A stretch of DNA of 64,000 bases, taken from the human T2T-CHM13v2.0 reference genome, Homo sapiens. A program made the position numbers and the translations under genes. The notes under the pieces are model-generated. The model was not told the DNA's origin, did no database searches, and was given only the letters and a program-made list of their open reading frames with translations. The stretch spans positions 6,784,001-6,848,000 of the forward strand of contig CP068257.2 of NCBI GenBank assembly GCA_009914755.4, written 5' to 3'. Of the stretch, positions 8,262 to 64,000 are shown piece after piece; within the stretch, counting starts at the first letter, position 1, and each line of letters starts with the position of its first letter.

Positions 8262-8288
8262 GGAACGGAACGGAACGGAACGGAACGG
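8262..8288. repeat. Example of a CpG-retaining (GGAAC)5 variant run; homologous runs at ~456-485, 23669-23695, 39172-39198, 47068-47094, 49800-49826
   Basis: Direct reading: GGAACGGAACGGAACGGAACGGAACGG. Confidence 0.85.
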
Positions 8289-8299
8289 AATGGAATGGA

Positions 8300-17200: not shown

Positions 17201-17400
17201 ATGGAATGGAATTTCATGAAATGGAATGGAATGGAATGGTATGGAATAAACACGACTGGAATGGTATGGAATGGAACGGAATGGAATGGAATAAAATGGA
17301 ATGGAATGGAATGGAATCAACTCGAGTGAAATGGAATGGAATGAAATGGAATGGAAAGGAATGTAATCAACCGGAGTGGAGTGGAATGGAATGGAGTAGA
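8300..17400. repeat. Long-variant-specific segment (copy 2; equivalent block in copy 3 at ~23700-32800), itself built from nested diverged duplications (~10500-11300 ~ 12140-12830 ~ 15950-16600; 12830-13660 ~ 16600-17450; 11280-11520 ~ 13640-13880 ~ 17530-17790)
   Basis: Artefact ORFs 10516..10995, 12141..12821 and 15856..16329 translate to near-identical peptides (MEWNHPEWNGM[T/A]WNAIEWNGTERNEMEWNRLNASG...). So do 12826..13140 and 16606..16851 (MEYNGMEWKGMESTQVHWNGMECNGINPRVMEWK...). No exact counterpart in copies 1, 4 or 5. Confidence 0.65.
8412..8466. repeat. Example of a pure (GGAAT)11 run; dozens of similar uninterrupted runs of 8-14 pentamers occur throughout (e.g. 1005-1060, 12001-12050, 32180-32235)
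   Basis: Direct reading. Confidence 0.9.
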
Positions 17401-38717: not shown

Positions 38718-41700
38718 AATCAACTTTGGTGGAATGGTATGGAATGGAATGGAAAGGAATGGAATGGAATGGAATAAAAGGGCATGGAATGGAATGAAAT
38801 CAACCCGAATGGAATGGAACGGAATGGAGTAGAATGGTATAGAATGGAATGGAATGGAAAGGAATCAACCTGAAGGGTATGGAATGGAATGGAATGGAAT
38901 GGAATTGAATTGAATGGAATGGAATGGAATCAACCAGAGGGGAATGCAATGAAATGAAATGGAATGGAATGGAACGGAAAGCAACGGAACGGAACGGAAT
39001 TGAATGGAATGGAATGAACCCGAGTGGAAAGGAATGGAATGGAATGGAATGGAATGGAATAACATGCAATCAACTTTGGTGGAATGGTATGGAATGGAAT
39101 GGAATGGAATGGAATCGAATGGAATGGAATCAACCCGAGTGGAATGCAATGGAATGAAAAGGAATGGAATGGAACGGAACGGAACGGAACGGAACGGAAT
39201 TGAATGGAATGGAATCAACCCGAGGGGAAAGGAATGGAATGGAATGGAATGGAATGGAATGGAATGGAATGGAATGGAATGGAATAAAAGGGCATGGAAT
39301 GGAATGGAATCATCCCGAGGGGAATGGAATGGAATGGAATGGAATGAAATGGAAATGAATCAAACCGAGTGGAATTTAATGTAATATAATGTAATGGAAT
39401 GGAATGGAAACAATGCAATGCAATGATATCAACTGGAATGGAATGCATTGGAATGGAATGGAATGGAATCACCCTGAGTGGAAAGGAATAGAATGGAATG
39501 GAAAGGAATGTAATGGAATGGAAACTAATGGAACGGAATGGAAACCACCAGAGTGGAATGGAATGCAATGGAATGGAATCGAATGGAATGGAATGGAATG
39601 GAATGGAATGGAATGGAATGGAATACAACAAAATGGAAACAACCCGAGTGGAATGGCATGGAATGAAAAGGATTGAATATAATGGAATGGATTGGAATCA
39701 ACCCGATTAGAAACTAATGGAATGGAATGGAATGGAATGGAATGGAATGGAATGGAATGGAATGGAATCTAACCTAGTGGAATGGAAAGGAATGGAATTT
39801 AAAGAAATGAAATGGAATGGAATGGAACAGAATTGAATGGAATGGAATGGAATGGAATCTACCCGAGTGAAATGGAATGGAATGGAATTTAATGGAATGG
39901 AATGGTATAGAATGTAATGGAATCAACCCCAGTGGAATGGTATAGAATGTAATGTAATGGAATGGAATGGAATAAAATGGAATGGAATGGAAACAACCCG
40001 AGTGGAATGGAATGGAATAACCGGAGAGGAATGGAATGGAATGGAGTGGAATGGAATGGAATAGAATGGAATAGAATGGAATGGAATAGAATGAAATTGA
40101 AAGGAATGGAATGGAAACCACCCGAGTGGAATGGAATGGAATGGAATGGAATGCAATGGAAACATCCCGAGTGGAATGGAAAGGAATGGAATGGAACGGA
40201 ATATAATGGAATGGAATGGAAACATCCCGAGTGGAATGGAATGGTATGGAATGCAATTGAATGGTATGGAACAGAACGGAATGAAATGGAATGCAATAGA
40301 TTGCGAGTGGAATTGAATGGAATGGAATGGATTGGAATGGAATGGAAAGGATTGGAGTGGAATGGAATGGAATCAACAAGAATGGAATGGAAAGGAATGG
40401 AATGGAATGGAATGGAATGGAATGGAATGGAATGGAATGGAATGGAATGGTAAGGAACAGAATGGAAACAACCCGAGTGGAATGGAATGGAATGGACTGT
40501 AATCCACCCGAGTGGAATGGAATGTAATGGAATTGAACGGAATATAATGGAATTGAATGGAATCATCCCGAGTCGAATGGAATGGTATCTAATGCAATGG
40601 AATGGAATGGAATGGAATGGAATGGAATGGAATGGAATGCAATGGAACACAACAAAATGGAAAAAACCCGAGTGGAATGGCATGGAATGGAAAGGACTTG
40701 AATATAATGGAATGGATTGGTATCATCCCGATTAGAAATTAATGGAATGGAATGGAATGGAAAGGAATGGAATGGAATGGAACCTACACAAGTGGAATGG
40801 AATGAAATGGAAATAAATGGAATGGAATAGAATGGAAAGGAATGGAACGGAATGGAATGGAATGGAATGGAATGGAATCTACCCGAGTGGAATGGAATGG
40901 AATGGAATTTAATGGAATGGAATGGAATAGAATGGTATGGAATCAACCCGAGTGGAATGGTAAAGAATGCAATGTAATGGAACGGAATGGAATGGAATAA
41001 AATGGAATGGAATGGAATGGAAACAACCCGAGTTGAATGGAATGGAATGGAATAACCGGAGAGGAATGGAATGGAATGCAGGGTAATGGAATGGAATAGA
41101 ATGGAATGGAATGGAATGGAATAGAATGAAATGGAAAGGAATGGAATAGAAACAACCCGAGTGGAATGGAATGGAATGGAATCCACCCGAGTGGAATGGA
41201 ATGCAATGGAATTGAACGGAATATAATGGAATTGAATAGAATCATCCTGAGTGGAATGGAATGGTATCTAATGCAATGGAGTGGAATGGAACAGAACTGA
41301 ATGGGATGGAAAGAATAGATTGAATCCAAGTGGAATTGAATGGAATGAAATGGATTCGAAAGGAATGGAATGGATTGGAATGGATTGGAATGGAAAGGAA
41401 TGGATTCAACCCGAGTGGAATGTAATGGATTGGAATGGAGTGGAATGGAATGGAATGGAATCAACACGAATGGAATGGAACGGAATGGAATGGAATGGTA
41501 TGGAATGAAATAGAAAGGAACGGAATAGAATCAACCAAAGTGGAATGGAATGGAATGGAATGGAAGGGAATCAACACGAGTGGAATTGAATGGAAAGGAA
41601 TGCAATGGAATGGAATGGAATGGAATGGAATGGAATGGAATGGAATGCAATGGAATTCAATGGAATCAACCCGAGTGGAATGGAATGCTATGGAATGCAA

Positions 41701-44700
41701 TGGAATGGAGTGGAACAGAACGGAATGGAATTGCATGGAATTGATTGAATCCGAGTGGAATTGAACGGAAGGGAATGCATTGGAATGGAAAGGAAAGGAT
41801 TCAACCCGAGTGGAATGTAATGGAATGGAGTGGAGTGGAATGGAATGGTATGGATTGGAATGGAATGGAATGGAATGGAATCAACACAAAGGGAATGGAA
41901 TGGAATGGAATAGAATGGAAAGGAATGGAATGGAATGGTATGGAATGTAATGTAATGGAATGGAATGGAATGAAATGGAATCAACCGGAATGGAATGGAA
42001 TGGAATGGAATGGAATGGAATGGAATGGAATGGAATGGAAATGAATCAAACCGAGTGGAATGGAATGGAATGGAATGGAAACAATGCCATGCAATGGTAT
42101 CAACGGGAATGGAATGCATTGGAATGGAATGGAATGGAATCACCCTGAGTGGATAGGAAAGGAATGGAAGGGAATGGAAAGGAATGGAATGGAATGGAAA
42201 CTAATGGAAGGGAATGGAAACAACCCGAGTGGAATGGAATGGAATGGAATGGAATGGAATGGAATGGAATGGAATACAACAAAATGGAAACAACCCGAGT
42301 GGAATGGCATGGAATGGAAAGGACTTGAATATAATGGAATGGATTGGAATCAACCCGATTAGAAACTAATGGAATGGAATGGAATGGAATGGAATGGAAT
42401 GGAATGGAATGGATTGGAATTTACCCGAATGGAATGGAATGTAATGAAATTAAATGGAATGGAAAGGAATGGAAAGGAATGGAATGGAATCTACACGAGT
42501 GGAATGGAATTGAATTGAATTTAATGGAATTGAACGGAATACAATGATATGGAATCAACCCGTGTGGAATGGTATAGAATGTAATGTAATGGAATGGAAT
42601 GGAATAAAATGGAATGGACTGGAATGGAAACAAAACGAGTGGAACGGAATGGAATAACCTGAGAGGAATGGAATGGAATGGAGTGGCATGGAATGGAATA
42701 GAATGGAATGGAATGGAATGGAATAGAATGAAATTGAAAGGAATGGAATGGAAACAACCCGTGTGGAATGGAATGGAAAGGAATCAACCTGAAGGGTATG
42801 GAATGGAATGGAATGGAATGGAATGGAATGGAATGGAATGGAATCAACCAGAGTGGAATGCAATGGAATGAAATGGAATTGAAATGAATGGAATGGAACG
42901 GAATGGAACGGAACGGAATTGAATCGAATGGAATCAACCCAAATTGAAAGGAATGGAATGGAATGGACTGGAATGGAATGGAATGGAATGGAATGGAATG
43001 GAATGGATTGGAATGGATTCAACACAAATGGAATGGAATGGAACGGAATGGAATAGAATGGAAAGGAGTGGAATGCAATTGAATGGAATGAAATGGAATA
43101 AACCCGAATGGAATGGAATGGAATGGAATGGAATTGAGTGGAATGGAATAAACACCAGTGGAATGAAATGGAATGGAATGGAATGGAATGAAATCAACAC
43201 GAGTAGAACGGAACGGAATGGAATGGAATGGAAAGGAATGGAATCAACTGGAATGGAATGAAATGGAATGGAATGGAGTGGAATGTAATGGAATGCAATG
43301 GAATCAACAAGAGTGAAATGCAAAGGAATGGAATGGAATGGAATAGAATGGAATGGAATGGAATACAACAAAATGGAAAGAACTCGAGTGGAATGGCAAG
43401 GAATGGAAAGGACTTGAATAAAATGGAATGGATTGGAATCAACCCGATTAGAAACTAGTGGAAAGGAATGGAATGGAATGGAATCTGCCCGAGTGGAATG
43501 GAATGGAATGGAATTGAATGGAATGGAATGGAGTGGAATAGAATAGAATGGAATGGAATGGAACGGAATGGAAGGGAATTGAATGGAATAGAATGGAATC
43601 GAATCTACCCGAGTGGAATGGAATGGAAAGGAATTTAATGGAATGGAAAGGAATGGAATGGAATGGAATGGAATGGAATGGAATGGAATGGAATGGAATA
43701 AACACCAGTGGAATGAAATGGAATGGAATGGAATGGAATGCAATGGAATGGAATGGAATGGAGTGGAATGGAATAAACACCAGTGGAATGAAATGGAATG
43801 GAATGGAATGGAATGCAATGGAATGGAATGGAATGGAATGGAATGGAATGGAAACTACTGGAATGGAATGGAAACAACCCGAGTGGAATGGAATGCAATG
43901 GAATGGAATGGAATGGAATGACACGGAATGGAATGGAATGGACTGGAATGGAATTTAAAGGAATGGAATGGAATCAACCCGACTGGAATGGAATGGAATG
44001 TAAAGCAGTGAATGGAATGTAATGGAATGAAATGGAATGGAATGGAATGGTATGCAATGCAGTGGAATGGATTTGAATGGAATGGAATGGAACGGAACGG
44101 AACGGAATGGAATGGAATGGAATGGAATGGAATGGAATGGACACCAATGGAATGGAATGGAATTGAATGGAATGGAATGGAATGGATTGGAATGGATGGG
44201 AATGGAATGGAACGGAATTAACCGGAGTGGAATGCAATGGAATGGAATGGAGTGGAATGGAATCAACCCGAGTGGAATGGAATGGAATGGAATGGAATGG
44301 AATGGAATGGAATGGAATGGAATCAACACGAATGGACTGGAACGAAATGGAATGGAATGGATTGGAATGGAATGGAATGGAATGGAATGGAATGGAATGG
44401 AATGGAATAGTATGGTATGGAATGAAATGGAAAGAAACAGAATGGAATCAACCCAAGTGGAGTGGAATAGAATGGAATGGAAGGGAATCAATACGAGTCA
44501 AATGGAATGGAGTGGAATGCTATGGAATGGAATGGAATGAAATGAAATGGAATGTAATGGAATGGAATGGAATTCAAGGGAATCAATCCGAGTGGAATGG
44601 AATGGTATGGAATGCAATGGAATGGAGTGGAACAGAACGGAATGGAATGGAATGGAATTGATTGAATCCGAATGGAATTGAATGGAAGGGAATGCATTGG

Positions 44701-46602
44701 AATGGAATAGAAAGGATTCAACCCGAGTGGAAAGTAATGGATTGGAATGGAATGGAAAGGAATGGAATGGAATCAACACAAATGGAATGGAATGGAATGG
44801 AAAGGAATGGATTGCAATGGAATGGAATGGAATGGAATGGAATGGAATGGAATGGAAATGAAAGGAATGGAATGCAATGGAATGGAATGGAATGCAATGG
44901 AATGGAATGGAATGCAATGGAATGGAATGGAATGAAATGAAATAAACCCGAATGGAATGGAATGGAATGGAATGCAATGCCATGGAATGGAATGGAATGG
45001 AGTGGAATGGAATAAACAGAAGTGGAATGAATTGGAATGGAATGAAATGGAATGGAATGGAATGGAATGGACTGGAATGAAATAAACCCGAGTAGAATGG
45101 AACGGAATGGATTGGAATGGAAAGGAATTGAATAAACTGGAATGGAATGAAATGGAATGGAAGGGAGTGGAATGGAATGGAATACAATGGAATCAACACG
45201 AGTGGAATGCAATGCAACGGAAGGGAAAGGAATGGAATGGAACGGAACCAACCCGAGTGGAGTGGAATAAAGTGGAATGGAATGGAGTATGATCAACCTG
45301 AGTGGAACGGAATGCAATGGAATGGAATGGAATGGAATGGTTTCAACCAGAGTGGAATGGAATGGAATGGAATGGAACGGAATGGAATGCAATGGACGTA
45401 ACTGGAATGGAATGGAATGGAATGGAATGGAATGGAATGGAATGGAACGGAATCAACATGAGTCAAATGGAATGGAATGGAATGGAATGGAATGGAATGG
45501 AATGGAGTCAACACGAATGGACTGGAACGTAATGGAATGGAATGGAATGGAATGGTATGGTTTGGAATGAAATGGAAAGGAACGGAATGGAATCAACCCA
45601 AGTGGAGTGGAATAGAATGGAATGGAAGGGAATGAAGACGAGTCAAATGGAATGGAATGGAATGCAATGGAAAGGAATGGAATGCAATGAAATGGAATGG
45701 AATGGAATGGAATGGAATGCAATGGAATGGAATGGAATTCAGTGAAATGGAATGGAAAAGAATGGAATGGAATAGAATGGAATCTACTGTAATGGAATGG
45801 AAACAACCTGAGTGGAATGGAATGCAATGGAATGGAATGGAATGGAATGGAATGGAATGGAATGGAAAGGAACGGAATGTAAAGGAATGGAATGGAATCA
45901 ACCCGACTGGAATGGAATGGAATGGAAAGGAATGAATGGAATGGAATGGAATGGAATGGAATGGAATGGAATGGAATGGAATTGTATGGAATACAATGAT
46001 ATGGAATTGAATGGAATGGAACGGAATGGAACGGAATGGAATGGAATGGACCCCAATGGAATGGAATGGAATGGAATGGATTGGAATGGAATGGAACGGA
46101 ATTAACCCGAGTGGAATGGAATGGAATGGAATGGAGTGGAATGGAATGGAATGGAATGGAATGGAATGGAATGGAAAGGAATCAACCCGAGTGGAATGCA
46201 ATGAAATGGAATGCAATGGAATGGAATGGTATGGAATCAACCCTAGTGAAATGGTATGGAATGGAATGGAATGGAACAGAATGGAATGGAATCATCCCGA
46301 ATGGAATGGAAAGGAATGGAGAGGAATGGTACGGTATGGAATGGAATGGAAAGGAATCAACCCGAAGGTTATGGAATGGAATGCAATGGAATGGAATGGA
46401 ATCAACCCGAGTGGAATGCAATCGAATAAAATGGAATGGAATGAAACGGAAAGGAACGGAATGGAACGGAATTGAAAGGAATGGAATCAAACCGAGTGGA
46501 AAGGAATGGAATGGAATGAAATGCAATGGTGTGGAATGGAATGGAAAGGAATAACATGCAATCGACTTTAGTGGAATGGTATGGAATGGAATAATATGCA
46601 AT
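38718..46602. repeat. HOR copy 4, short (~7.9 kb) variant, near-identical to copy 1
   Basis: 38718-38897 is identical to 1-180. Short-specific sequence (TTTAATGTAATATAATGTAATGG at ~39372, cf. ~647) is present. Tail ORFs match copy 1 at offset ~38.7 kb (4213..5097 = 42934..43818, both 294 aa and identical). Confidence 0.8.
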
Positions 46603-48478
46603 CAACTTTGGTGGAATGGTATGGAATGGAATGGAAAGGAATGGAATGGAATGGAATAAAAGGGCATGGAATGGAATGGAATCAACCCGAATGGAATGGA
46701 ACGGAATGGAGTAGAATGGTATAGAATGGAATGGAATGGAAAGGAATCAACCTGAAGGGTATGGAATGGAATGGAATGGAATGGAATTGAATTGAATGGA
46801 ATGGAATGGAATGGAATCAACCAGAGGGGAATGCAATGAAATGAAATGGAATGGAATGGAACGGAAAGCAACGGAACGGAACGGAATTGAATGGAATGGA
46901 ATGAACCCGAGTGGAAAGGAATGGAATGGAATGGAATGGAATGGAATGGAATAACATGCAATCAACTTTGGTGGAATGGTATGGAATGGAATGGAATGGA
47001 ATGGAATCGAATGGAATGGAATCAACCCGAGTGGAATGCAATGGAATGAAAAGGAATGGAATGGAACGGAACGGAACGGAACGGAACGGAATGGAATGGA
47101 ATGGAATCAACCCGAGGGGAAAAGAATGGAATGGAATGGAATGGAATGGAATGGAATGGAATGGAATGGAATGGAATAAAAGGGCATGGAATGGAATGGA
47201 ATCATCCCGAGGGGAATGGAATGGAATGGAATGGAATGGAATGGAATGAAACGGAAATAAATCAAACCGAGTGGAATTTAATGTAATATAATGTAATGGA
47301 ATGGAATGGAAACAGTGCAATGCAATGATATCAACTGGAATGGAATGCATTGGAATGGAATGGAATGGAATCACCCTGAGTGGAAAGGAATAGAATGGAA
47401 TGGAAAGGAATGTAATGGAATGGAAACTAATGGAACGGAATGGAAACCACCAGAGTGGAATGGAATGCAATGGAATGGAATCGAATGGAATGGAATGGAA
47501 TGGAATGGAATGGAATGGAATGGAATGGAATACAACAAAATGGAAACAACCCGAGTGGAATGGCATGGAATGAAAAGGATTGAATATAATGGAATGGATT
47601 GGAATCAACCCGATTAGAAACTAATGGAATGGAATGGAATGGAATGGAATGGAATGGAATCTAACCTAGTGGAATGGAAAGGAATGGAATTTAAAGAAAT
47701 GAAATGGAATGGAATGGAACAGAATTGAATGGAATGGAATGGAATGGAATCTACCCGAGTGAAATGGAATGGAATGGAATTTAATGGAATGGAATGGTAT
47801 AGAATGTAATGGAATCAACCCCAGTGGAATGGTATAGAATGTAATGGAATGGAATGGAATGGAATAAAATGGAATGGAATGGAAACAACCCGAGTAGAAT
47901 GGAATGGAATAACCGGAGAGGAATGGAATGGAATGGAGTGGAATGGAATGGAATAGAATGGAATAGAAAGGAATGGAATAGAATGAAATTGAAAGGAATG
48001 GAATGGAAACCACCCGAGTGGAATGGAATGGAATGGAATGGAATGCAATGGAATCAACCTGAGTGGAATGGAAAGGAATGGAATGGAACGGAATATAATG
48101 GAATGGAATGGAAACATCCCGAGTGGAATGGAATGGTATGGAATGCAATTGAATGGTATGGAACAGAACGGAATGAAATGGAATGCAATAGATTGATTGC
48201 GAGTGGAATTGAATGGAATGGAATGGATTGGAATGGAATGGAAAGGATTGGAGTGGAATGGAATGGAATCAACAAGAATGGAATGGAAAGGAATGGAATG
48301 GAATGGAATGGAATGGAATGGAATGGAATGGTAAGGAACAGAATGGAAACAACCCGAGTGGAATGGAATGGAATGCACTGTAATCCACCCGAGTGGAATG
48401 GAATGTAATGGAATTGAACGGAATATAATGGAATTGAATGGAATCATCCCGAGTCGAATGGAATGGTATCTAATGCAA
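46603..48478. repeat. HOR copy 5, truncated short-variant copy (first ~1.9 kb only), slightly more diverged (~98% by eye) than copies 1 and 4
   Basis: Marker at 46603; short-specific motif at ~47275. 47850-48478 aligns to 39960-40600 with a handful of substitutions. Colinearity with copy 4 ends abruptly after GGTATCTAATGCAATGG at ~48478. Confidence 0.7.
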
Positions 48479-49939
48479 TGGAATGGAATGGAACAGAACG
48501 GAATGGAATGGAAAGAATAGATTGAATCCAAGTGGAATTGAATGGAATGAAATGGATTGGAAAGGAATGGAATGGATTCTAATGGAAAGGAGTGGATTCA
48601 ACCCGAGGGAATGTAATGGATTGGAATGGAGTGGAATGGAATGGAATGTAATCAACACGAATGGAATGGAACGGAATGGAATGGAATGGAATGGAATGCT
48701 ATGGAATGAAATAGAAAGGAACGGAATAGAATCAACCCAAATGGAATGGAATGGAATGGAATGGAATGGAATGGAAGGGAATCAACACGTGTGGAATGGA
48801 ATGGAAAGGAATGCAAAGGAATGGAATGGAATGGAATGCAATGGAATGGAATGGAATGGAATGGAATGGAATCAACCCGAGTGGAGGGGAATGGAATGGA
48901 ATGGAATCAACAAGAGTGGAGTGGAATAAAATGGAATGGAATGGGATGGAATCAACCTGAGTGGAACGGAATGGAATGGAATGGAACGGAATGGAATGGT
49001 ATCAACCAGAGTGGACTGGAATGGAATGGAATGGAATGGAATGGAATGGAATGGAACAGAATCAACCTGAGTCAAATAGAATGGAATGGAATGGAATGGA
49101 ATGCAATGGAATGGAAACTACTGGAATGTCATGGAAACAACCCGAGTGGAATGGAATGGAATGGAATGGAATGGAATGGAATGGAATGGATTGGAATGGA
49201 ATGTAAAGGAATGGAATGGAATCAACCCGACTGGAATGGAATGGAAAGGAAAGGAATGAATGGAATGGAATGGAATGGAATGGAATGGATTGGAATGGAA
49301 TGGAATGGAATAAACCAGAATGGAATGGAATGAAATGGAATGGAATGGAGTGGAATGGAATAAACACCAGTGGAATGAAATGGAATGGAAGGAAATGGAA
49401 TGGAATGGAATGGAATGGAATGGAATGGAATGGAATGGAATGAAATCAACCCGAATAGAATGGAACGGAAAGGAATGTAATGGAATAGAGTGGAATGGAA
49501 TGGAATGGAATGGAATGGAATGGAATGGAATGGATTCAACCCGAGTGGAATGGAATGGAATGGAATGCAATGGAATGGAATGGTATGGAATCAACCCTAG
49601 TGGAATGGTATGGAATGGAATGGAACGGAACGGAATGGAATTTAATCAACCCGAATGGAATGGAACGGAATGGAGTGGAATGGTACGGAATGGAATGAAA
49701 TGGAAAGGAATCAACACGAAGGGTATGGATTGTAATGCAATGGAATGGAATGGAATGGAATCAACCCGACTGGAATGCAATGGAATAAAATGGAATGGAA
49801 TGGAACGGAACGGAACGGAACGGAACGGAATTGAAAGGAATGGAATCAACCCGAGTGAAAAGGAATGGAATGGAAAGGAATGGAATGGAATGGAATGGAA
49901 TGGAATGGAATGGAATGGAGTGGAATGGAATGGAATGGA

Positions 49940-51380
49940 ATAACATGCAATCAACTTTGGTGGCATGGTATGGAATGGAATAACATGCAATCAAATTTGG
50001 TGGAATGGTATTTAAAGAAATGGAAAAGAATGGAATGGAATGGAATAAAAGGGCATTGAAAGGAAAGGAATCAAACCGAATGGAATGGAACGGAATGGAG
50101 TGGAATGGTATGGAATGGAATGGAATGGAAAGAAATCAACCCGATGTGTATGGAATGGAATGGAATGGAATGGAACGGAATGGAATGGAATCAACACGAG
50201 TGGAATGCAATGGAATGAAATGGAATGGAATGGAACGGAACAGAACAGAATTGAATGAAATGGAATCAACACAAGTGGAAAGGAATGGAATGGAATGGAA
50301 TGCAATGGAATGCAATTGAATGGAATGGAATAACATGCAATCAACTTTGGTGGAATGGTATGGAATGGAATGGAATATAATGGAATGGAATGGAACAAAA
50401 GGGCATGGAATGGAACGGAATCAAACCGAATGGAATAGAGCGGAAGGGAGTGGAATGGTATGGAATGGAATGGAATGGAAAGGAATGAACCTGAAGGGCA
50501 TGGAATGGAATGGAATGGAATGGAAGGGAATGGAAAGGAATGGAATCAACTCGAGTGGAATGTAATGGAATGGAATGGAACGGAACGGAACGGAAAGGAA
50601 TTGAATGGAATGGAATCAACCCGAGTGGAATGGAATGGAATGGAATGCAATGGAATGGAATGGAATGCAATGGAATGGAATGGAATGGAATGGAATGGAA
50701 TGGAATGGAATGGAATGGAATAACATGCAATCAACTTTGGTGGAAAGCTATAGAATGGAATGGAATGGAATGGAATGGAATGGAATGGAATGGAATGGAA
50801 TGGAATGGAAAGGAATGGAATGGAATGGAATAAAAGGGCATGGAATGGAACAGAATCAACCCGAATGGAAAGGAACGGAAAGGAGTGGAATGGTATGGAA
50901 TGGAATGGAATAGAAAGGAATCAACCCGAAGGGTATGGAATGGAATGGAATGGAATGGAATGGAATGGAATGGAATGGAATGGAATCAACCCGAGTGGAA
51001 TGCAATGGAATGAAATGGAAGGGAATGGAATGGAATGGAACGGAACGGAACGGAATGGAACGGAACGGAATTGAATGGAATGGAATCAACCAAAGTGGAA
51101 AGGAATGGAATGGAATGGAATGGAATGGAATGGAATGGAATGGAATGCAATGGAATGGAATGGAATGGAATGCAATGGAATGGAATGGAATGCAATGGAA
51201 TGGAATGGAATGGAATGGAATGGAATGGAATGGAATGGAATGGAATAGCATGCAATCAACTTTGGTGGAATGGCATGGAATGGAATGGAATGGAATGGAA
51301 TGGAATGGAATAAAAGGGCATGGAATGGAATGGAATCAACCCGAGAGGAATGGAATGAAATGGAATGGAATGGAATGGAA
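49940..51380. repeat. Tandem ~390 bp HSat3 sub-repeat (unit: ATAACATGCAATCAACTTTGGTGGAATGGTATGG ... ATAAAAGGGCATGG ... CAACCCGAAGGGTATGG ... (GGAAC)n ... CAACCCGAGTGGAAAGG), ~3.5 copies
   Basis: CAATCAACTTTGGTGG recurs at ~49948, 49988, 50338, 50728 and 51248 (spacings 390, 390, 520). Each unit contains ATAAAAGGGCAT and a GGAAC run in the same order as HOR head 1-350. Confidence 0.7.
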
Positions 51381-53400
51381 TGGAAATCAGTCAAACCGAG
51401 TGGAATGTAATGTAATGGAATGGAATGGAAACAGTGCAAAGCAATGCTATCAAAGGGAATGGAATGCATTGGAATGGAATGGAATGGAATCACCCTGAGT
51501 AGAAAGGAATGGAATGGAATGGAATGGAACGGATGGAATGGAATGGAAACTAATGGAATGGAATGGAAACAACCCGAGTGGAATGGAATGCAATGGAATG
51601 GAATGGAATGGAATGGAATGGAATGGAATACAACAAAATGGAAACAACCTGAGTGGAATGGCATGGAATGGAAAGGACTTGAATATAATGGAATGGATCA
51701 GAATCAACCGGATTAGAAACTAATGGAATGGAATGGAATGGAATGGAATGGAATGGAATAGAATGGAATGGAATGGAATCTACAAAAGTGGAATGGAATG
51801 TAATGGAATTAAATGGAATGGAATAGAATGGAATGGAACGGAATGGAATGGAATGGAATGGAATGGAATGGAATGGAATGGAATGGAATCAACCCGAGTG
51901 GAATGGAATGGAAAGGAATGGAAGGGAATCAACACGAGTGGAATGGAATGGAAAGGAATGCAATGGAATGGAATGGAATGGAATGGAATGGAATGGAATG
52001 GAATGGAGTGGAATGGAATGGAATCTACCCAAGTGGAATGGAATGGAATGGAATTTAATGGAATGGAATGGAATAGAATGGTATGGAATCAACCCCAGTG
52101 GAATGGTAAAGAATGCAATGTAATGGAACGGAATGGAATGGAATAAAATGGAATGGAATGGAATGGAATGGAAACAACCCGAGTGCAATGGAATGGAATG
52201 GAATAACCGGAGAGGAATGGAATGGAATGAAGTGTAATGGAATGTAATAGAATGGAATGGAATGGAATGGAATGGAATGGAATGGAATGGAATGGAATAG
52301 AATGAAATGGAAAGGAATGGAATAGAAACAACCAGAGTGGAATGGAATGGAAAGGAATCCACCCTAGTGGAATGCAATGGAATGGAATGGAACGGAACAC
52401 AATGGAATGGAATGGAATTGTCCCGAGTGGAATGGAATGGTATGGAATGCAATAGAATGGAATGGAACAGAACGGAATGAAATGGAATGGAATAGATTGT
52501 ATGCGAGTGGAATTGAATGGAATGGAATGGATTGCAATGGAATGGAATGGATTGGAGTGGAATGGAATGGAATCAACACGAATGGAATGTAACGGAATGG
52601 AATGGAATGGAATGTAACGGAATGGAATGGAATGGAATGGAAAGGAACGGAATGGAATCAAACTTAGTGGAATGGAAGGGAATGGAATGGAATCCACCCG
52701 AGTGTAATGGAATGGAATGGAATGCAATGGAATTGAACGGAATATAATGGAATGGAATGCAATCATCCCGAGTGGAATGGAATGGTATATAATGCAATGG
52801 AATGAAATGGAACAGAACGGAATGGAATGGAAATAATAGATTGAATCCAAGTGGAATTGAATGGAATGGAATGGATTGGAAAGGAATGGAATGGATTGGA
52901 ATGGAAAGGAATGGATTCAACCCGAGTGGAATGTAATGGATTGGAATGGAGTGGAATGGAATGGAACGGAATGAACACGAATGTAATCGAACGGAATGGA
53001 ATGGAATGGTAAGCAATGAAATGGAAAGGAACGGAATAGAATCAAACCAAGTGGAAGGGAATGGAATGGAATGGAAGGAAATCAACACGAGTGGAATGGA
53101 ATGGAAAGGAATGCAATGGAATGGAATGGAATGGAATGGAATGGAATGGAATGGAATGGAATGGAATGGAATGGAATCTACCCGAGTGGAGTGGAATGCA
53201 ATGGAATGGAATGGAATGGAATCAACCCGAGTGGAATGGAATGGAAGAGAATGCAATAGAATGGAATGGAATGGAATGCAATGGAATGGAATGGAGTGGA
53301 ATTCAATGGAATCAAACCGAGTGGAATGGAATGGTATGGAATGCAATTAAATGGAGTGGAACAGAAGGGAATGGAATGGAATGGAATTGATTGAATCCGA
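51380..53400. repeat. Diverged paralogue of HOR short-variant positions ~640-2900 (includes the landmark element at ~51625-51720)
   Basis: 51380-51500 (AAATCAGTCAAACCGAGTGGAATGTAATGTAATGG...AAACAGTGCAAAGCAATGCTATCAAAGGG...CACCCTGAGT) parallels 636-760. 51625-51720 parallels 903-1003. Artefact ORF 52089..52850 parallels 1068..1967 and 13842..14258. Confidence 0.55.
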
Positions 53401-54339
53401 GTGGAATTGAATGGAAGGGAATACATCGGAATGGAATGGAAAAGATTCAACCCGAGTGGAATGTAATGGAATGGATTGGAGTGGAATGGAGTGGAATCAC
53501 CACAAATGGAATGGAATGCAATGGAATAGAAGGGATTGGAATAGAATGGAATGGAATGGAACGGAATGGAATAGAATGGAATGTAATGGAATGGAGTAGA
53601 ATGGAATAAACACCAGTGGAATGAAATGGAATGGAATGGAATGGAATGGAATTGAATGGAATGAAATGAACCCCAGTAGAACACAACGGAATGGAATGGA
53701 ATGGAAAGGAATGGAATCAACTGGAATGGAATGAAATGGAATGGAATGGAGTGGAATGGAATGGAATGCAATGGAATCAACAAGAGTGAAATGCAATGGA
53801 ATGGAATGGAATGGAATGGAACGGAATGGAATCAACCAGAATGGAGTGAAATAAAATGGAAAGGAGTGGAATGGAATCAACCTGAGTGGAACGGAACGGA
53901 ATGGAATGGAATGCAATGGAATGGAATGGAATGGAATGGAATGGTATCAACCAGAGTGGAATGGAATGGAATGGAATGGAATGGAGCAGGAATGGAATGC
54001 AATGGAATCAACTGCAATGAAATGGAATGGAATGGAATTGATTGAATCCGAGTGGAAATAAAAGGAAGGGAGTGCATTGGAATGGAATGGAAAGGATTAA
54101 ACCCGAGTGGAATGTAATGGAATGGGGTGGAGTGGAATGGAATGGTATGGAATGGAATGGAATGGAATAGAATCAACACAAAGAGAAAGGAATGGAATGG
54201 AATGGAATAGAATGGAAAGGAACGGAATGCACTGGAATGGAATGGAATGGAATGAAATGGAATAAACCCGAATGGAATGGAATGGAATGGAATGGAATGG
54301 AATGGAATGGAATGCAATGGAATGGAATGGAATGGAATG

Positions 54340-57300
54340 GAATAATATGCAATCAACTTTGGTGGAATGGTATAGAATGGAATGCAATGGAATGGAATGG
54401 AATGGAATGGAATGGAATGGAATCAAACCGAGTGGAATGCAATGGAATGGAATAGAATGGAATGGAATGGAATGGAATCAACCCGAAGGAAATGGAATGG
54501 AATGGAAAGGAATGAATGCAATGGAATGGAATGGGATGGTATGGAATGCAATGGGATGGAATTGAATGGAATGGAACGGAATGGAACGGAATGGAATGGA
54601 CCTCAATGGAATGGAATGGAATGGAATGGATTGGAATGGGATGGAACGGAATTAACCCGAGTGGAATGGAATGGAATGGAATGGAACGGAATGGAATGGA
54701 ATGGAATGGACCCCAATGGAATGGAATGGAATGGAATGGAATGGAATGGAATGGAATCAACCCGAGTGGAATGTAATGGAATGGAATGCAATGAAATGGA
54801 ACGGTATGGAATCAACCCTAGTGGAATGGTGTGGAATGGAATGGAACGGAACGGAATGGAATGGAATGGAATCAACCTGAATGGAATGGAATGGAATGCA
54901 GTGGAAAGGTACGTAATGGAATGGATTGGAAAGGAATCAACTCGAAAGGTATGGAATGGAATGCAATGGAATGGAACGGAATGGAATGGAATCAACCTGA
55001 GTGGAATGCAATGGAATAAAATGGAATGGAATGGAACGGAACGGAACGGAATGGAACGGAATTGAAAGGAATGGAATCAATCCGAGTGGAAAGGAATGGA
55101 ATGGAATGGAATGGAATTTAGTGGAATGGAATGGAATGGAATAACATGCAATCAACTTTGGTGGAATAGTATGGAATGAAATAACATGCAATCAACTTTG
55201 GTGGAATGGTATGGAATGGAATGGAAAGGAATGCAATGGAATGGAATAAAAGGGCATGGAATGGAACGGAATCAACCCGAATGGAATGGAACGGAATGGA
55301 GAGGAATGGTATGGAATGGAATGGAATGGAAAGAAATCAACCCAAAGGGTATGGAACGGAACGGAATAGAATGGAATGGAATCAACCCGAGTGGAAAGGA
55401 ATGGAAAGAAATGGAATGGAATGTAATGGAATGGAATAACATGCAATCAATTTTTGTGGAATGGTATGGAATGGAATGGAATGGAATGGAATGGAATGGA
55501 ATGGAAAGGAATGGAATAAAAGGGCATGGAATGGAACGGAATCAACCCGAATGGAATGGAGAGGAATGGAGTGGAATGGTATGGAATGGAATAGAATGGA
55601 AAGGAATCAACACGGAGGGTGTGGAATGGAATGGAATGGAATGGAAAAGAATGGAATCAACACGATTGCAATGCAATGGAATGAAATATAATGGAATGGA
55701 ATGGAACGGAACGGAACGGAATTGAAAGGAATGGAATCAACCCGAGTGGAATGCAATGCAATGGAATGGAATGGAATGGAATGGAATGGAATGGAATAAA
55801 AGGGCATGGAATTGAATGGAATCAACCTGAGAGGAATGGAATGGAATGGAATGGAATGGAATGGAATAGAATGGAATGGAATAAAAGGGCATGGGATGGA
55901 ACAGAATCAACCCGAATGGAATGGATCGGAATGGAGTGGAACGGTATTGAATGGAATCGAAAGGAAAGGAATCAATCTGAGGGGTATGTAATGGAAAGGA
56001 ATGGAATGGAATGGAATGGAATCAGCCCGACTGGACTGCAATGGAATGAAATGGAATGGAATGGAAAGGAATGGAACGGAACGGAACAGAACCGAACAGA
56101 ATTGAATGGAATGGAATCAACCCAAGTGGAAAGGAATGGAATGGAATGGAATGGAATGGAATGGAAAGGTATGGAATGGAATAGCATGCAATCAACTTTG
56201 GTGGAATGGTATGGAATAGAATGGAATGGAATGAAATAAAAGGGCATGGAATGGAACGGAATCAAACCGAATGGAATGGAACGGAATGGAGTGGAATGGT
56301 ATGGAATGGAATGGAATGGAAAGAAATCAACCCGAAGGGTATGGAATGGAATGGAATTGAAAGGAATGGAATGGAATGGAATCAACCCGAGAGGAATGCA
56401 ATGGAATGAAATGGAATGGAATGGAACGGAACGGAACGGAATAGAATGGAATGGAATCAACCCGAGTGGAAAGGAATGGAAAGAAATGGAATGGAGTGTA
56501 ATGGAATGCAATAACATGCAATCAACTTTGGTGGAATGGTATGGAATGGAATGGAATGGAATGGAATGGAATTGAATGGAATGGAATGGAATGGAAAGGA
56601 ATGGAATAAAAGGGCATGGAATGGAACGGAATCAACCCGAATGGAATGGAGCGGAATGGAGTGGAAAGGTATGGAATGGAATGGAATGGAAAGGAATCAA
56701 CCCGAAGGGTGTGGAATGGAATGGAATGGAATGGAAAAGAATGGAATCAGCACGATTGGAATACAATGGTATGAAATGTAATGGAATGGAACGGAACGGA
56801 ATAGAACGGAATTGAAAGGAATGGAATCAACCCGAGTGGAATGGAATGAAATGCAACGGAATGGAATGGAATGGAATGGAATGGAATGGAATGGAATAAC
56901 ATGAAATCAACTTTGGTGGAATGATTGGAATGGAATGGAATGGAATGGAATGGAATGGAATGGAATGGAATAAAAGGACATGGGATGGAAAAGAATCAAC
57001 CCAAAAGGAATGCATCGGAATGGAGTGGAATGGTATTGAATGGAATCGAATGGAAAGGAATCAACCTGAAGGGTATGGAATGGAAAGGAATGGAATGGAA
57101 TGGAATGGAATGGAATCAGCCCGACTGGAATGCAATGGAATGAAATGGAATGGAATGGAAAGGAATGGAAAGGAACGGAACAGAACGGAACAGAATTGAA
57201 TGGAATGGAATCAACCCAAGTGGAAAGGAATGGAATGGAATGGAATGGAATGGAATGGAATGGAATGGAATGGAATGGAATGGAAAGGTATGGAATGGAA

Positions 57301-57400
57301 TAGCATGCAATCAACTTTGGTGGAATGGTATGGAATGGAATGGAATGGAATAGAATGGAAACTACTGGAATGGAATGGAAATAAACCGAGTGGAATGGAA
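54340..57400. repeat. Second stretch of the ~300-400 bp ATAACATGCAATCAACTTTGGTGG / ATAAAAGGGCATGG sub-repeat, ~8-9 irregular copies
   Basis: Marker positions ~54351, 55150, 55188, 55443, 56190, 56519, 56907 and 57309 (spacings 290-800). ATAAAAGGGCATGG is present in each. Confidence 0.65.
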
Positions 57401-60400
57401 TGCAATGGAATGGAATGGAATGGAATGGAATACAACAAAATGGAAACAACCCGAGTGGAATGGCATGGAATGGAAAGGACTTAAATATAATGGAATGGAT
57501 TGGAATAAACCCAATTAGAAACTAATGGAATGGAATGGAATGGAATGGAATGGAATCTACCCGAGTGGAATGGAATGGAATGGAATTTAATGGAATGGAA
57601 TGGAATGGAATGGAATGGAACGGAATGGAATGGAATGGAATGTACCCGAGTGGAATGGAATGGAATGGAATTTAATGGAATGGAATGGAATAGAATGGTA
57701 TGGAATCAACCCGAGTGGAATGGTATAGTATGGAATGTAATGGAACGGAATGCAATGCAATAAAATGGAATGCAATGGAATGGACACAACCCAAGTGGAA
57801 TGGAATGGAATAACCGGAGAGGAATGGAATGGAATGGAGTGGAATGGAATGGAATAGAATGGATTGGAATGGAATGGAATAGAAAGAAATGGAAAGGAAT
57901 GGAATGGAAACAACCCGAGTGGAATGGAATGGAATGGAATGGAATCAACACGAGTGGAATGGAATGGAATGGAATGGAATGGAATGGAATGGAATGGAAC
58001 GGAATATAATGGACTGGAATGGAGTCATCCCGAGTGGAATGGAATGGTATGGAATGCAATGGAATGGAATGGAACAGAACGAAATGAAATGCAATGGAAT
58101 AGATTGAATGCGAGTGGAATTGAATGGAATGGAATGGATTGGAATGGAAAGGTATGGATTGGAGAGGAATTGAATGGAATCAACACGAATGGAAAGGAAG
58201 GCAATGGAATGGAATGCAAAGGAACGGAATGGAATCATCCAGAATGGAATGGAATGGAATGGAATGAAATTGAATGGAATGGAATGGAATGGTATAGAAT
58301 GACCCGAGTGTAATGGTATAGAATGCAATGGAATGGAACGGAATGGAATGGAATAAAATGGAAAGGAATGGAATGGAATCGACCCGAGTGAAATGGAATG
58401 GAATGGAATGGAAAGGAAGTGAATCAACCTGAGTGGAATGGAATGGAATGGAATGGAATGGAATGGAATGGAATGGAATGGAATCAACCAGAATGGAGTG
58501 GAACAAAATGGAATGGAATGGAATGGAATGCAATGGAATCAATTGGAATGGAATGGAATGGATTGGAATGGAACAGAATCAACACGAATCAAATGGAATG
58601 GAATGGAATGGAATGCAATGGAATGGAATGGAATGGAAACTACTGGAATGGAATAGAATCAACCTGACTGGAATGGAATGCAATGGAATGGAATGGAATG
58701 AAATGGAATGGAAAGGAATAGAATGAAATCAACACTAGTGGAATGAATGGAATGGAATGGAAAGGAATGGAATGGAATGGAATGGAATCAACACGAATGG
58801 AATGGAACGGAATGGAATGGAATGGAATGGAATGGAATGGAATGTAACGGAATGGAATGCAATGGAATCAACTGGAATGGAATGGAATGGATTGGAATGG
58901 AACGGAATCAACATGAATCAAATGGAATGGAATGGAATGGAATGCAATGGAATGGAATGGAATGGAATGGAAACTACTGGAATGGAATAGAATCAACCCG
59001 ACTGGAATGGAATGCATTGGAATGGAATGGAATGAAATGGAATGGAAAGGAATGGAATGGAATCAACACTAGTGGAATGAATGGAATGCAATGGAAAGGA
59101 TTGGAATGGAATGGAACAGAATGGAATGGTATGGAATCAATCCGAGAGGAATAGTATGGAATGGAATGGAAAGGAACGAAATGGAATGGAATAAAATGTA
59201 ATTGAATGCAATGGAATCAACCCGAGTGAAATGGAATGGAATGGAATGGAATGGAATGGAATGCAATCAATCCGACTGGAATGCAATGGAATGGAATGGA
59301 AGGGAATGGAATGTAATGGAATCAACAAGAGTGGAATGGAATGGAATGGAATGGAATGGAATGGAATGGAATGGAATGGAATGGAATGGAAAAGAATCTA
59401 CCTATGTCAAATGGAATGGAATCGAATGGAATGGAAATTACTGGAATGGAATGGAAACAAACCGAGTGTAATGGAATGCATTGGAATGTAATGGAATGGA
59501 ATGGAATGGAATCAACACTAGTGGAATGAATGGAATGGAATGGAGAGGAATGGAATGCAATGGAGCGGAAAGGAATGGTATGGAATCATCCTGAGAGGAA
59601 TAGTATGGAATGGAATGGAATGGAACGGAATGGAATGGAATAAAATGTAATTGAATGCAATGGAATCAACCCGAGTGAAATAGAATGGAATGGAATGGAA
59701 TGGAATGCAATCAATCCGACTGGAATGCAATGGAATGGAATGGAAGGGAATGGAATGTAATGGAATCAACAAGAGTGGAATAAAATGGAATGCAACGGAA
59801 TCACCCCGAGTGGAATGAAATGGAATATAATGCAATGAAATGGAATGGAATCAACACTAGTGGAATGGAATAGAATGGAATGGAATGGAATGGAACGGAA
59901 TGCAAGGCAATGTAATCAACTGGAATGGAATGGAATGGAATGGAATGGATTGGAATGGAATGGAATGGAGTGGAATGGAGTGGAATGGAATAACATGCAA
60001 CCAACTTTGGTGGAATGGTATGGAATGGAATGGAAAGGAATGCAACGGAGTGGAATAAAAAAGGCATGGAATGGAACTGATTCAACCCGAATGGAATGGA
60101 ACGGAATGGAATGCAATGGAATCAACTGGAATGGAGTGGAATGGATTGGAATGGAACGGAATCAACCTGAGCGAAATAGAATGGAATGGAATAGATTGGA
60201 AACTACTGGAAGGGAATGGAAACAACCTGACTGGAATGGAATGCAATGGAATGGAATGGAATGGAATGGAATGGAATGGAATGGAATGGAATGGAATGGA
60301 AACAACCCGAATGAAATGGAATGGAATGGAAAGGAATGAATGCAATGGAATGGAATGGGATGGTATGGAATGCAATGGGATGGAATTGAATGGAATGGAA

Positions 60401-63400: not shown

Positions 63401-64000
63401 GGAATGGAATGGAATGGAGTCAATCCGGGTGGAATGGAATGGAATGGAATGGAATGGAATGGAATGGAAAGGAATGCATTGGAATGGAATTGAATGGAGT
63501 GGAATGGAATGGAATGGAATGGAATGGAAAGGAATGCATTGGAATGGAATTGAATGGAGTGGAATGGAATGGTATGGCATGGAATGGAATATACCCGAAT
63601 GGAATGGAACAGAATGGAATGGAAAGGAATGGAAAGGAATGGAATGGAATGGAGTGGAATGGAATGGAACGCTACGGAGTCAAACCGGGTCTAATGGAAA
63701 TAAATGGAATGGAATGGAATGGAATCAACCCGAATGGAATGGAATGGAATGGAATGGAAAGGAAAGAATGGAATGGAAGGTCATGGAATCAACCCGAGTG
63801 GAATGGAATGGAATGGAATGGAATGGAATGGAATGGAATGGAATGGAATGGAATGCAAAGGAATGGAATGGAATGGAATGGAATGCAAAGGAATGGAATG
63901 GAATGGAACGGAAAGAAACGGAATGGAATGTCACGGAATGGAATGAACCCGAATGGAATGGAATGGAATGGATTGGAATGGAATGGAATGGAATCAACTC

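What the first reader, a model, noticed from the sequence alone, without database searches (positions are those of the whole stretch)
48380..48760. Array edge at ~48478: breakpoint between paralogous GGTATCTAATGCAATGG sites, then transition to an older diverged layer
Copy 5 follows copy 4 colinearly (48210-48478 ~ 40320-40588). After GGTATCTAATGCAATGGAATGGAATGG it jumps to sequence homologous to the next paralogous occurrence of that motif (~41268 in copy 4, or better ~14200 in copy 2: ...AACAGAACGGAATGGAATGGAAAGAATAGATTGAATCCAAGTGGAATTGAATGG...). This is equivalent to a ~680 bp deletion by unequal exchange. Thereafter divergence from the HOR increases steadily, and no 7.9/15.4 kb periodicity is seen to the end of the window. 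This looks like the boundary of the homogenised core.
Basis: seen in the sequence. Interest (0 to 1): 0.55.

Follow-up and report, generated by a model that had tools for sequence, protein, structure and literature searches.

The report
Edge of a local satellite-3 amplification
This is the right-hand end of a recently amplified multi-kilobase block inside a continuous (GGAAT)n human-satellite-3-type array. It is a real, sharp boundary of an ordinary and already described kind, and it is probably not a 680 bp deletion.

Summary
The whole 64 kb window is HSat3-type (GGAAT)n satellite in one orientation. Positions 1-48493 hold a few near-identical multi-kb blocks in the order X Y x' Z Y x' Z Y X Y X, with periods of 7.88 and 15.39 kb. 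Copies are 99.3-100% identical. The last X copy (46616-48493) follows the other X copies up to base 48493. Colinear identity then falls at once from about 99% to background (62-75%).

The sequence right of the junction is 82-84% identical to the matching part of Y. A recent 679 bp deletion inside a homogenised copy is therefore excluded. The arrangement across 48465-48690 is the canonical one. It occurs at 10 of 12 motif sites in the window and in all 11 unrelated satellite contigs retrieved from metagenomes. The odd arrangement is the X|Y joint (1885-1927 and 40601-40643). There the conserved block is cut after the motif and fused through a pure (AATGG)7 run to the sequence that otherwise follows Z.

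The most economical reading is that 48493 is the untouched distal endpoint of a tandem amplification, and that X|Y is the derived joint. This is an ordinary local nested-tandem-repeat expansion of the kind described for HSat2/3. Interest is low.

The parts
46616..48493 (+). X5, the last and most distal copy of the 1.9 kb block X. This is the right-most piece of the homogenised core.
   Evidence: It is 99.3% substitution identity to X1 (18-1895) and X4 (38734-40611). There are 13 private substitutions and 7-8 pentamer indels spread over its whole length. In its first 620 bp it shares states with x' rather than with X1/X4.
48482..48493 (+). The breakpoint interval. AATGGAATGGAA is the last sequence shared between X5 and X1/X4, and lies directly after the motif.
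   Evidence: The three-way alignment shows the first difference at 48494-95. The motif is followed by 2 AATGG units here and by 7 at the X|Y joints.
48275..48690 (+). An intact copy of the conserved ~400 bp sub-block P, which contains GGTATCTAATGCAATGG at 48465-48481.
   Evidence: Paralogs span it at 92.9% (14032-14418), 91.3% (2387-2782 and three further copies) and 90.3% (52609-53009). The same arrangement is found in 11 external contigs.
48494..49056 (+). Non-homogenised right flank, an old paralog of the sequence that follows block P elsewhere.
   Evidence: It is 86.2% identical to 14206-14774, 84.8% to 52798-53361, and 84.3% to 2561-3138 and 41277-41854.
49017..50300 (+). An old, diverged paralog of Y-end followed by X-start. 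The flank keeps the block order of the core unit but lacks most of Y.
   Evidence: The local alignment to 45693-46936 is 84% over 1320 columns. Individual 100 bp windows reach 0.96-0.98 at Y 7160 and Y 7435.
48494..64000 (+). The diverged zone. It is the same satellite family in the same orientation, a mosaic of old paralogs of X, Y and Z pieces.
   Evidence: It has 200-540 unique 20-mers per kb, against about 0 in the core, and no 7.9 or 15.4 kb offsets. Best-paralog identity is 0.86-0.93.
40601..40643 (+). The derived X4|Y4 joint. Block P is cut after the motif and fused through (AATGG)7 AATGCAAT to GGAACACAAC...
   Evidence: Apart from its own copy, the best window spanning this joint elsewhere is 87%, which is near background.
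1885..1927 (+). The derived X1|Y1 joint, identical to the one at 40601-40643.
32790..32842 (+). The parental Z3|Y3 boundary: (AATGG)9 AATGCAAT in front of GGAACACAAC. It is the likely partner site of the exchange. An identical copy lies at 17400-17452.
   Evidence: An older paralog spans this boundary at 90-91%.
38734..46616 (+). X4 Y4, one 7.88 kb unit of the homogenised core.
   Evidence: It matches 18-7905 with 1 mismatch in X and 0 in Y.
7905..17435 (+). x' plus Z, the 9.5 kb segment that makes the 15.39 kb unit together with Y. It is repeated at 23300-32825.
   Evidence: The two copies differ by 1 substitution in 9518 aligned bases. The homology of x' to X ends at about 8437.

Best explanation
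The window lies inside one continuous HSat3-type array. A multi-kilobase stretch of it was amplified recently by out-of-register exchange. The mechanism could be unequal sister-chromatid or homologue exchange, or template switching during replication or repair.

The ancestral order was Z-end, then Y, then X, then flank. An exchange took place between two short pure pentamer runs. One is the AATGGAATGG that follows the conserved block at the end of X (now 48482-48491). The other is the (AATGG)9 run in front of Y (now 32797-32842). It produced Y X Y X and one new joint, X|Y.

On this reading, 48493 is simply where the duplicated segment ends. The X5-to-flank arrangement is the original, undisturbed sequence, and nothing was deleted there. 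Later events copied X Y and Y x' Z again, at 38.7 kb and 15.4 kb spacing, and homogenised them to about 100% identity. X5 at the edge stayed 0.7% different.

Shown: the block map, the step in identity, the canonical nature of the 48465-48690 arrangement, the uniqueness of the X|Y joint, and the pentamer runs at the three boundaries.

Inferred: the direction (which junction is parental), the single-event model, and the molecular mechanism.

The feature has no function of its own. It is a scar of satellite turnover.
For: 1. The step is abrupt. X5 matches X1/X4 at 98-100% per window up to 48493, then at 62-75%.
2. The X5-to-flank arrangement is canonical. It is present at 10 of 12 motif sites in the window and in 11 of 11 independent satellite contigs. 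Paralogs span it at 90-93%.
3. The X|Y joint is unique to copies 1 and 4. Its best other spanning match is 87%, which is background. It truncates block P right after the motif.
4. The sequence to the right of the X|Y joint is identical to what follows Z-end at 17453 and 32843. That Z-end to Y-start arrangement has a 90.4% older paralog over 1.6 kb. Both proposed parental boundaries are therefore old, and the recombinant one is not.
5. All three boundaries lie in pure AATGG runs of 2, 9 and 7 units, as expected for exchange in pentamer microhomology.
6. X5 is the outgroup of the X copies. It has 13 private differences against 1 between X1 and X4, and it shares states with x'. It is not a fresh copy of X4.
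7. The literature describes multi-kb nested tandem repeats in HSat2/3 that expand 'hyper-locally' with varying periodicity. It also reports higher divergence in the more peripheral DYZ1 HSat3 units.
Against: - An in-register exchange between two copies of block P would also recreate a canonical-looking block. Canonical arrangement alone does not prove that the junction is parental.
- A test for chimerism of block P did not discriminate. It compared identities of the left and right halves with other copies, but the right half is simply more conserved family-wide.
- Polarising the 12 substitutions that separate X5 from X4 gave a mixed and noisy result.
- The full history is more complex than one event. 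It includes the x' truncation at X~620, a mosaic Y3, and a 38.7 kb super-period.
- Only one haplotype and only the right edge are visible.
Confidence: 0.58

Rival explanations
1. The junction is a derived recombinant, made by an in-register unequal exchange between block P at the end of a homogenised X and another copy of block P. That second copy would lie in an old, diverged unit rather than in copy 5's own Y. The exchange removed the intervening DNA. Relative to the core unit, the result looks like a 679 bp deletion.
For: - The break lies within or just after a ~400 bp block that is 91-93% identical between sites. That is a plausible substrate for exchange.
- The flank keeps the order of the core unit: X-end, then early Y, then late Y, then X-start.
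- An in-register exchange leaves a canonical-looking block, so searches do not exclude this model.
Against: - A deletion within a homogenised copy is excluded, because the flank is 82-84% rather than about 99% identical to Y.
- The model needs one event more than the endpoint model. An X with an intact block P must have existed anyway to give rise to the truncated X|Y joint, and X5 is the only such X.
- The break coincides within 10 bp with the X|Y joint, in a pentamer run at the very end of the shared sequence, and not inside the longer homology of block P.
Confidence: 0.22
2. This is a gene-conversion or homogenisation front. An old paralogous unit at 46.6-48.5 kb was overwritten from the left by conversion from a core X Y unit. 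The tract had to stop at 48493, because there the donor (X|Y joint) and the recipient (intact block P) cease to be homologous.
For: - It explains the step and its coincidence with the X|Y joint without any length change.
- Mosaic patterns typical of conversion occur elsewhere. Y3 shares Y2 states up to about 34389 and is private thereafter, with a dense patch at 36959-37064. X5 has three clustered changes at 48054-48060.
Against: - X5 carries 13 private substitutions spread evenly over 1.9 kb, and it shares states with x'. A recent conversion from X4 or X1 is therefore unlikely.
- This model does not explain where the X|Y joint came from.
Confidence: 0.13
3. This is an assembly artefact: a false join or a collapse in a highly repetitive satellite.
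For: The region is 99-100% repetitive over tens of kb, and satellites are prone to misassembly. No read data are available here.
Against: - The junction region is anchorable, with 73 and 238 unique 20-mers in the 47-48 and 48-49 kb bins.
- X5 has private variants on the left of the junction, and the sequence on the right is unique.
- The arrangement across the junction is a normal one for this family.
- There is no change of strand, composition or satellite type.
Confidence: 0.05

Closest known systems
Nested tandem repeats (NTRs) of HSat2/HSat3, as defined for T2T-CHM13 with NTRprism (Altemose et al., bioRxiv 10.1101/2021.07.12.452052)
   Same: The repeat units are multi-kilobase and built from diverged (CATTC)n/(GGAAT)n. 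Periodicity changes along the array. The paper describes NTRs as 'evolving and expanding hyper-locally'. This window shows 7.88 and 15.39 kb units at 99.3-100% identity next to non-periodic satellite of the same family.
   Different: Only 2-4 copies of each block are visible, in a mixed order (X Y x' Z ...), rather than a long uniform array. The chromosome and the HSat3 subfamily could not be determined with these tools.
DYZ1, the ~3.6 kb HSat3 nested tandem repeat of Yq12 (T2T-Y, bioRxiv 10.1101/2022.12.01.518724)
   Same: It is an HSat3-derived multi-kb unit, with most copies over 98% identical and higher divergence in the more peripheral units. This parallels X5 being the most divergent X copy at the edge.
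   Different: The unit length differs (7.9 and 15.4 kb against 3.6 kb). No HSat1B or Alu interspersion is seen here. Nothing suggests that this window is Y-linked.
Layered expansion and edge divergence of alpha-satellite HOR arrays
   Same: There is a homogeneous core flanked by older, more diverged copies of the same family. Unequal exchange is thought to homogenise the centre more than the edges.
   Different: Here there is no ~171 bp monomer and no discrete monomer count, so this is not a HOR in the strict sense. The transition is a single step at one base-pair-level breakpoint followed by only a weak gradient. Only one side is visible.
Tandem segmental duplication by unequal exchange at short direct repeats (general mechanism; from established knowledge)
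   Same: There are two parental boundaries and one novel joint that combines the left side of one with the right side of the other, inside microhomology. This matches Z|Y, X|flank and X|Y, which lie in AATGG runs of 9, 2 and 7 units.
   Different: In a pentamer satellite, microhomology is available everywhere. The choice of site therefore carries little information.

Membership tests
Human satellite 3 (HSat3 / classical satellite III type) | Derived from the pentamer (CATTC)n = (GGAAT)n | tested here: met
   Perfect GGAAT makes up 50-56% of bases in every 4 kb bin across the window. GC skew is constant and strong at +0.62 to +0.70.
Human satellite 3 (HSat3 / classical satellite III type) | Interspersed diagnostic 10-mer-type element, as targeted by the published HSat3 PNA probe TCCACTCGGGTTGATT | tested here: met
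   The reverse complement AATCAACCCGAGTGGA has 68 exact matches, all on the + strand, against 0 expected. The probe sequence comes from PMC10425934.
Human satellite 3 (HSat3 / classical satellite III type) | Not HSat2, judged by absence of the HSat2 probe sequence TCGAGTCCATTCGATGAT | tested here: met
   There are 0 matches on either strand, even with 2 mismatches allowed.
Human satellite 3 (HSat3 / classical satellite III type) | Human or ape pericentromeric or acrocentric location, and assignment to one of the named HSat3 subfamilies (A1-A6, B1-B5) | not testable with these tools
   No eukaryotic genome collection is available. The only related sequences found were 11 short satellite contigs in metagenome assemblies, 81-88% identical to the window. 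They are paralogous, not orthologous.
Nested tandem repeat (NTR) of HSat2/3 | A multi-kb unit composed of diverged pentamers and repeated head-to-tail at high identity | tested here: met
   Dominant k-mer offsets are 15385-15395, 7836-7892 and 38716. Chains cover 18-48492. Copies are 99.3-100% identical. Only 2-4 copies lie within the window.
   No monomer level exists between 5 bp and the multi-kb blocks. The supposed 679 bp sub-blocks 1205-1884 and 1885-2563 are 78% identical, which is background. Sub-block offsets are irregular: 1.6, 2.4, 3.8, 3.9 and 5.4 kb.
Layered-expansion architecture (young core, progressively older flanks) | A monotonic age or divergence gradient away from the core, on both sides | tested here: inconclusive
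   There is a step at 48493 and then a weak decline of best-paralog identity, from 0.91-0.93 to 0.865-0.886 (Spearman -0.34, p = 1.6e-5). The left side of the core lies outside the window.
   Identity is 99.3% on the left, and 84.3% or 81.6% on the right.

The most novel reading that the evidence does not exclude
The ~400 bp conserved block carrying GGTATCTAATGCAATGG could be a recurrent preferred breakpoint of large-scale rearrangement in HSat3 arrays. It is 91-95% conserved between unrelated loci and is present in 11 independent satellite contigs. On this reading, X-to-Y and X-to-flank would be two independent events at the same 10 bp, and the block would delimit amplification units genome-wide. 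That would point to a sequence- or structure-specific fragile or recombinogenic site inside HSat3.
Probability: 0.07. Interest if true: 0.45.

Novelty: new member of a known kind. Interest (0 to 1): 0.15.

Why it matters
The finding matters little beyond bookkeeping. It gives a base-pair-resolved example of how a local multi-kb amplification inside HSat3 begins and ends. There are two old boundaries and one new joint, all in pure pentamer runs, and the edge copy has escaped the latest round of homogenisation. Such junctions are useful as unique markers for read mapping, for assembly validation, and for tracing copy-number variants of this array across haplotypes. The case also shows that, at an array edge, the arrangement that differs from the repeat unit may be the ancestral one.

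Tried and rejected
- **Self-BLAST.** A whole-window BLAST against itself timed out. I replaced it with k-mer chaining and FFT-based ungapped scans.
- **Orthologue search.** An exact 46-mer of the X end found nothing in metagenome contigs, so no orthologous sequence or second haplotype was obtained. A shorter 21-mer found 11 paralogous satellite contigs plus one chance hit. That hit is a bacterial contig present in both collections (L004 and L013).
- **Chimerism test for block P.** I compared the left and right halves of the block at 48465 with other copies. The right half is more conserved everywhere, so the test does not discriminate.
- **Polarising substitutions.** I tried to polarise the 12 substitutions that separate X5 from X4, using paralogs. 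The contexts are too repetitive. About 4 sites favour X5 as ancestral and about 7 favour X4.
- **Flank as an orthologue of the start of Z.** I considered that the flank corresponds to 8864 onward, which would make X Y a deletion derivative of X Z Y. I rejected this as a close relationship. Identity to 8861-9512 is only 80%, and 86% over the first 220 bp.
- **An ancient 679 bp tandem sub-repeat.** Rejected, because the two blocks are 78% identical.
- **Literature search for the 10-mer.** It returned only probe sequences.
Full report
**What the window is.** All 64 kb are (GGAAT)n-derived satellite in one orientation. GC content is 0.40-0.42 and GC skew is +0.62 to +0.70 in every 2 kb bin. Perfect GGAAT accounts for 50-56% of bases throughout. 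The published HSat3 PNA probe sequence (PMC10425934) occurs 68 times as AATCAACCCGAGTGGA, always on the + strand. The HSat2 probe sequence does not occur even with two mismatches allowed. The sequence is therefore HSat3-type satellite. Species, chromosome and subfamily cannot be determined with the tools available.

**Large-scale structure.** K-mer offset histograms show dominant self-similarity at 15385-15395, 7836-7892 and 38716 bp. Chaining rare 22-mers gives this block map:
- X: 18-1895
- Y: 1911-7905
- x': 7905-8437. This is X positions 102-620, after which homology to X stops.
- Z: 8438-17435
- Y: 17436-23300
- x' and Z again, up to 32825
- Y: 32826-38734
- X: 38734-40611
- Y: 40627-46616
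- X: 46616-48493

Identities among copies:
- X1 against X4: 1 mismatch in 1847.
- Y1 against Y4: 0 mismatches in 5963.
- Y2: 2 mismatches from Y1 and Y4.
- Y3: 16-19 mismatches from the other Y copies. It is mosaic, Y2-like up to about 34389 and private afterwards.
- The two x'Z copies: 1 mismatch in 9518.
- X5: 13 substitutions from both X1 and X4, plus 7-8 pentamer-multiple indels. These are spread over its whole length rather than forming a gradient.

In its first 620 bp, X5 shares several states with x' rather than with X1/X4. The edge copy is thus the outgroup of the X copies.

**The observation.** X5 is colinear with X1 and X4 at 0.92-1.00 per 60-column window up to the motif GGTATCTAATGCAATGG (48465-48481) and 12 further bases. 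The first difference is at 48494-95. Beyond that point the colinear alignment with copies 1 and 4 is 0.62-0.75, which is the background level of this satellite. The right flank 48479-49056 has these best matches:
- 14206-14774 and 29591-30159: 86.2%
- 52798-53361: 84.8%
- 2561-3138 and 41277-41854: 84.3%

The motif has 11 exact sites against 0.01 expected, and its two sites within the X Y unit are 679 bp apart. After 48.5 kb, unique 20-mers rise from about 0 to 200-540 per kb, and no 7.9 or 15.4 kb offsets remain.

One correction is needed. The change is a step followed by only a weak trend. Best-paralog identity to the core is 0.91-0.93 over 48.5-54.5 kb and 0.865-0.886 over 58.5-64 kb (Spearman -0.34, p = 1.6e-5). 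The satellite itself continues to the end of the window. This is the edge of a homogenised block, not of the array.

**Which junction is derived.** I printed all motif sites with their flanks. The motif sits in a conserved block, which I call P. Ten of the 12 sites, including 48465, continue a[ag]tggaatggaacagaac[gt]gaatgg...aagaatagattgaatcca. Only the two X|Y sites (1868 and 40584) continue instead with (aatgg)7 aatgcaat ggaacacaacaaaatgg. That second sequence is exactly what follows the end of Z at 17453 and 32843, where it is preceded by an (AATGG)9 run.

I compared 391 bp windows centred on each boundary with the rest of the window:
- The X5|flank window has spanning paralogs at 92.9%, 91.3% and 90.3%.
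- The Z|Y window has one at 91.1%. This extends to 90.4% over 1.6 kb, 16904-18445 against 13004-14570.
- The X|Y window has nothing better than 87%, which is near background.

A 21-mer of the motif retrieved 11 independent satellite contigs from metagenome assemblies. They are presumably host DNA, and are 81-88% identical to the window. All 11 show the canonical continuation.

The arrangement at 48465-48690 is therefore the family-wide, old one. The X|Y joint, which truncates block P, is the derived one.

- A recent 679 bp deletion by exchange between the two motif sites of a homogenised copy is excluded. It would leave the right flank about 99% identical to Y, and the flank is 82-84% identical.
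- The two putative 679 bp sub-blocks are only 78% identical. Paralogy is confined to about 400 bp around the motif.
- The core claim stands: a sharp boundary of the homogenised core, located at this block, next to an older layer.

The flank does keep the block order of the core unit. X-end is followed by an early-Y-like stretch (48494-49056). A Y-end to X-start paralog then follows (49017-50300 against 45693-46936, 84%; single windows up to 0.98). This fits an older, shorter relative of the same unit.

**Best explanation.** The simplest history starts from the order Z-end, Y, X, flank. An out-of-register exchange occurred between the two-unit AATGG run after block P at the end of X and the nine-unit AATGG run in front of Y. 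It yielded Y X Y X and one novel joint with a seven-unit run. The two parental boundaries remained, Z|Y on the left and X|flank on the right. Position 48493 is then the distal endpoint of the amplified segment, and nothing was deleted there. Further duplications at 15.4 and 38.7 kb spacing, together with conversion, explain the near-100% identity of the inner copies and the mosaic Y3.

I put this at about 0.58. Three rivals remain.
- **In-register exchange with an old copy of block P (about 0.22).** It also yields a canonical-looking block and cannot be excluded from one haplotype, but it needs one more event.
- **A conversion front (about 0.13).** The tract would be forced to stop where the donor (X|Y) and the recipient (intact P) lose homology. 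This explains the coincidence of breakpoints. It fits poorly with X5's evenly spread private differences.
- **Misassembly (about 0.05).** The abundance of unique k-mers and private variants around the joint argues against it. It cannot be tested without reads.

Two attempts to discriminate further failed. One was the half-block identity comparison. The other was polarisation of the X5 substitutions.

**Comparison with what is known.** Altemose et al. (bioRxiv 10.1101/2021.07.12.452052) define multi-kb 'nested tandem repeats' in HSat2/3. [quoted passage not shown] The T2T-Y paper describes the 3.6 kb HSat3 NTR DYZ1. Most of its units are over 98% identical, with higher divergence in the more peripheral units. 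The present locus is an ordinary instance of this organisation. It meets the NTR criteria tested. It does not meet the strict HOR definition. It is only inconclusively a 'layered' architecture, because one side is missing.

**Verdict.** The feature is real and well defined, and it is mechanistically unremarkable. The main added value is the corrected polarity: the junction flagged as a deletion is most likely the untouched ancestral arrangement, and the true novel joint is X|Y at 1885-1927 and 40601-40643. Interest is 0.15, and the classification is a new member of a known kind.

Noticed in passing
window 18-7905 vs 38734-46616: There is a 38.7 kb super-period. X1 Y1 and X4 Y4 differ by 1 substitution in about 7.8 kb (0 in Y, 1 in X). 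This is much closer than neighbouring copies are to each other. The most recent event was therefore a large duplication (at least 38.7 kb spacing) or a long conversion, not a unit-by-unit exchange.
   Followed up: partly
window 36959-37064 (Y3): Y3 has a dense patch of private differences here: about 12 substitutions and two 20 bp deletions within about 110 bp, against a background of about 0.3% divergence. It looks like a short conversion tract from a diverged paralog. Overall, Y3 is Y2-like up to about 34389 and private afterwards.
   Followed up: partly
window 22179 (Y2) and 7888-7905 / 23283-23300 (x'): Y2 lacks 115 bp that are present in Y1, Y3 and Y4. Both x' copies lack the first 100 bp of X at the Y|X boundary, and leave X homology at X~620 (8437 and 23837). 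These are further block-level breakpoints inside the core.
   Followed up: partly
window 54489-55002 vs 60313-60831: This is a near-identical ~500 bp duplicate inside the otherwise diverged zone, 5.8 kb apart. Ungapped 150 bp windows are 0.98-1.00 identical. Identity falls to 89% over 700 bp. It is a small recent duplication or conversion outside the core.
   Followed up: partly
window 55353-57324 and 58950-59950: The diverged zone has short local tandem periodicities. One has a period of about 1.08-1.12 kb (55353-56205 against 56428-57324; windows up to 0.97, 87% overall). Another has a period of about 450 bp (about 59100 against 59550, 0.93). The zone also holds several diverged copies of X-start between 49.8-51.3 kb and 55.2-57.2 kb.
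   Followed up: no
window 48034-49056 vs 52338-53361: An older paralogous pair lies 4.3 kb apart and spans the junction colinearly. It is 88.7% identical left of 48478 and 84.8% right of it. The X-end plus flank arrangement was therefore already duplicated once in the old layer.
   Followed up: yes
window 48054-48060 (X5): There are three X5-private substitutions within 7 bp (A>T, T>A, C>T relative to X1/X4). Two of the three match the majority state of paralogs. This suggests a micro-conversion rather than independent point mutations.
   Followed up: partly
L004 11506-11526 and L013 5319-5339: The 21-mer AATGGTATCTAATGCAATGGA also occurs by chance in a non-satellite bacterial contig (a Bacilli MAG, 16573 bp). 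The same contig is present in both the metagenome and genome collections. It is unrelated to the satellite.
   Followed up: yes
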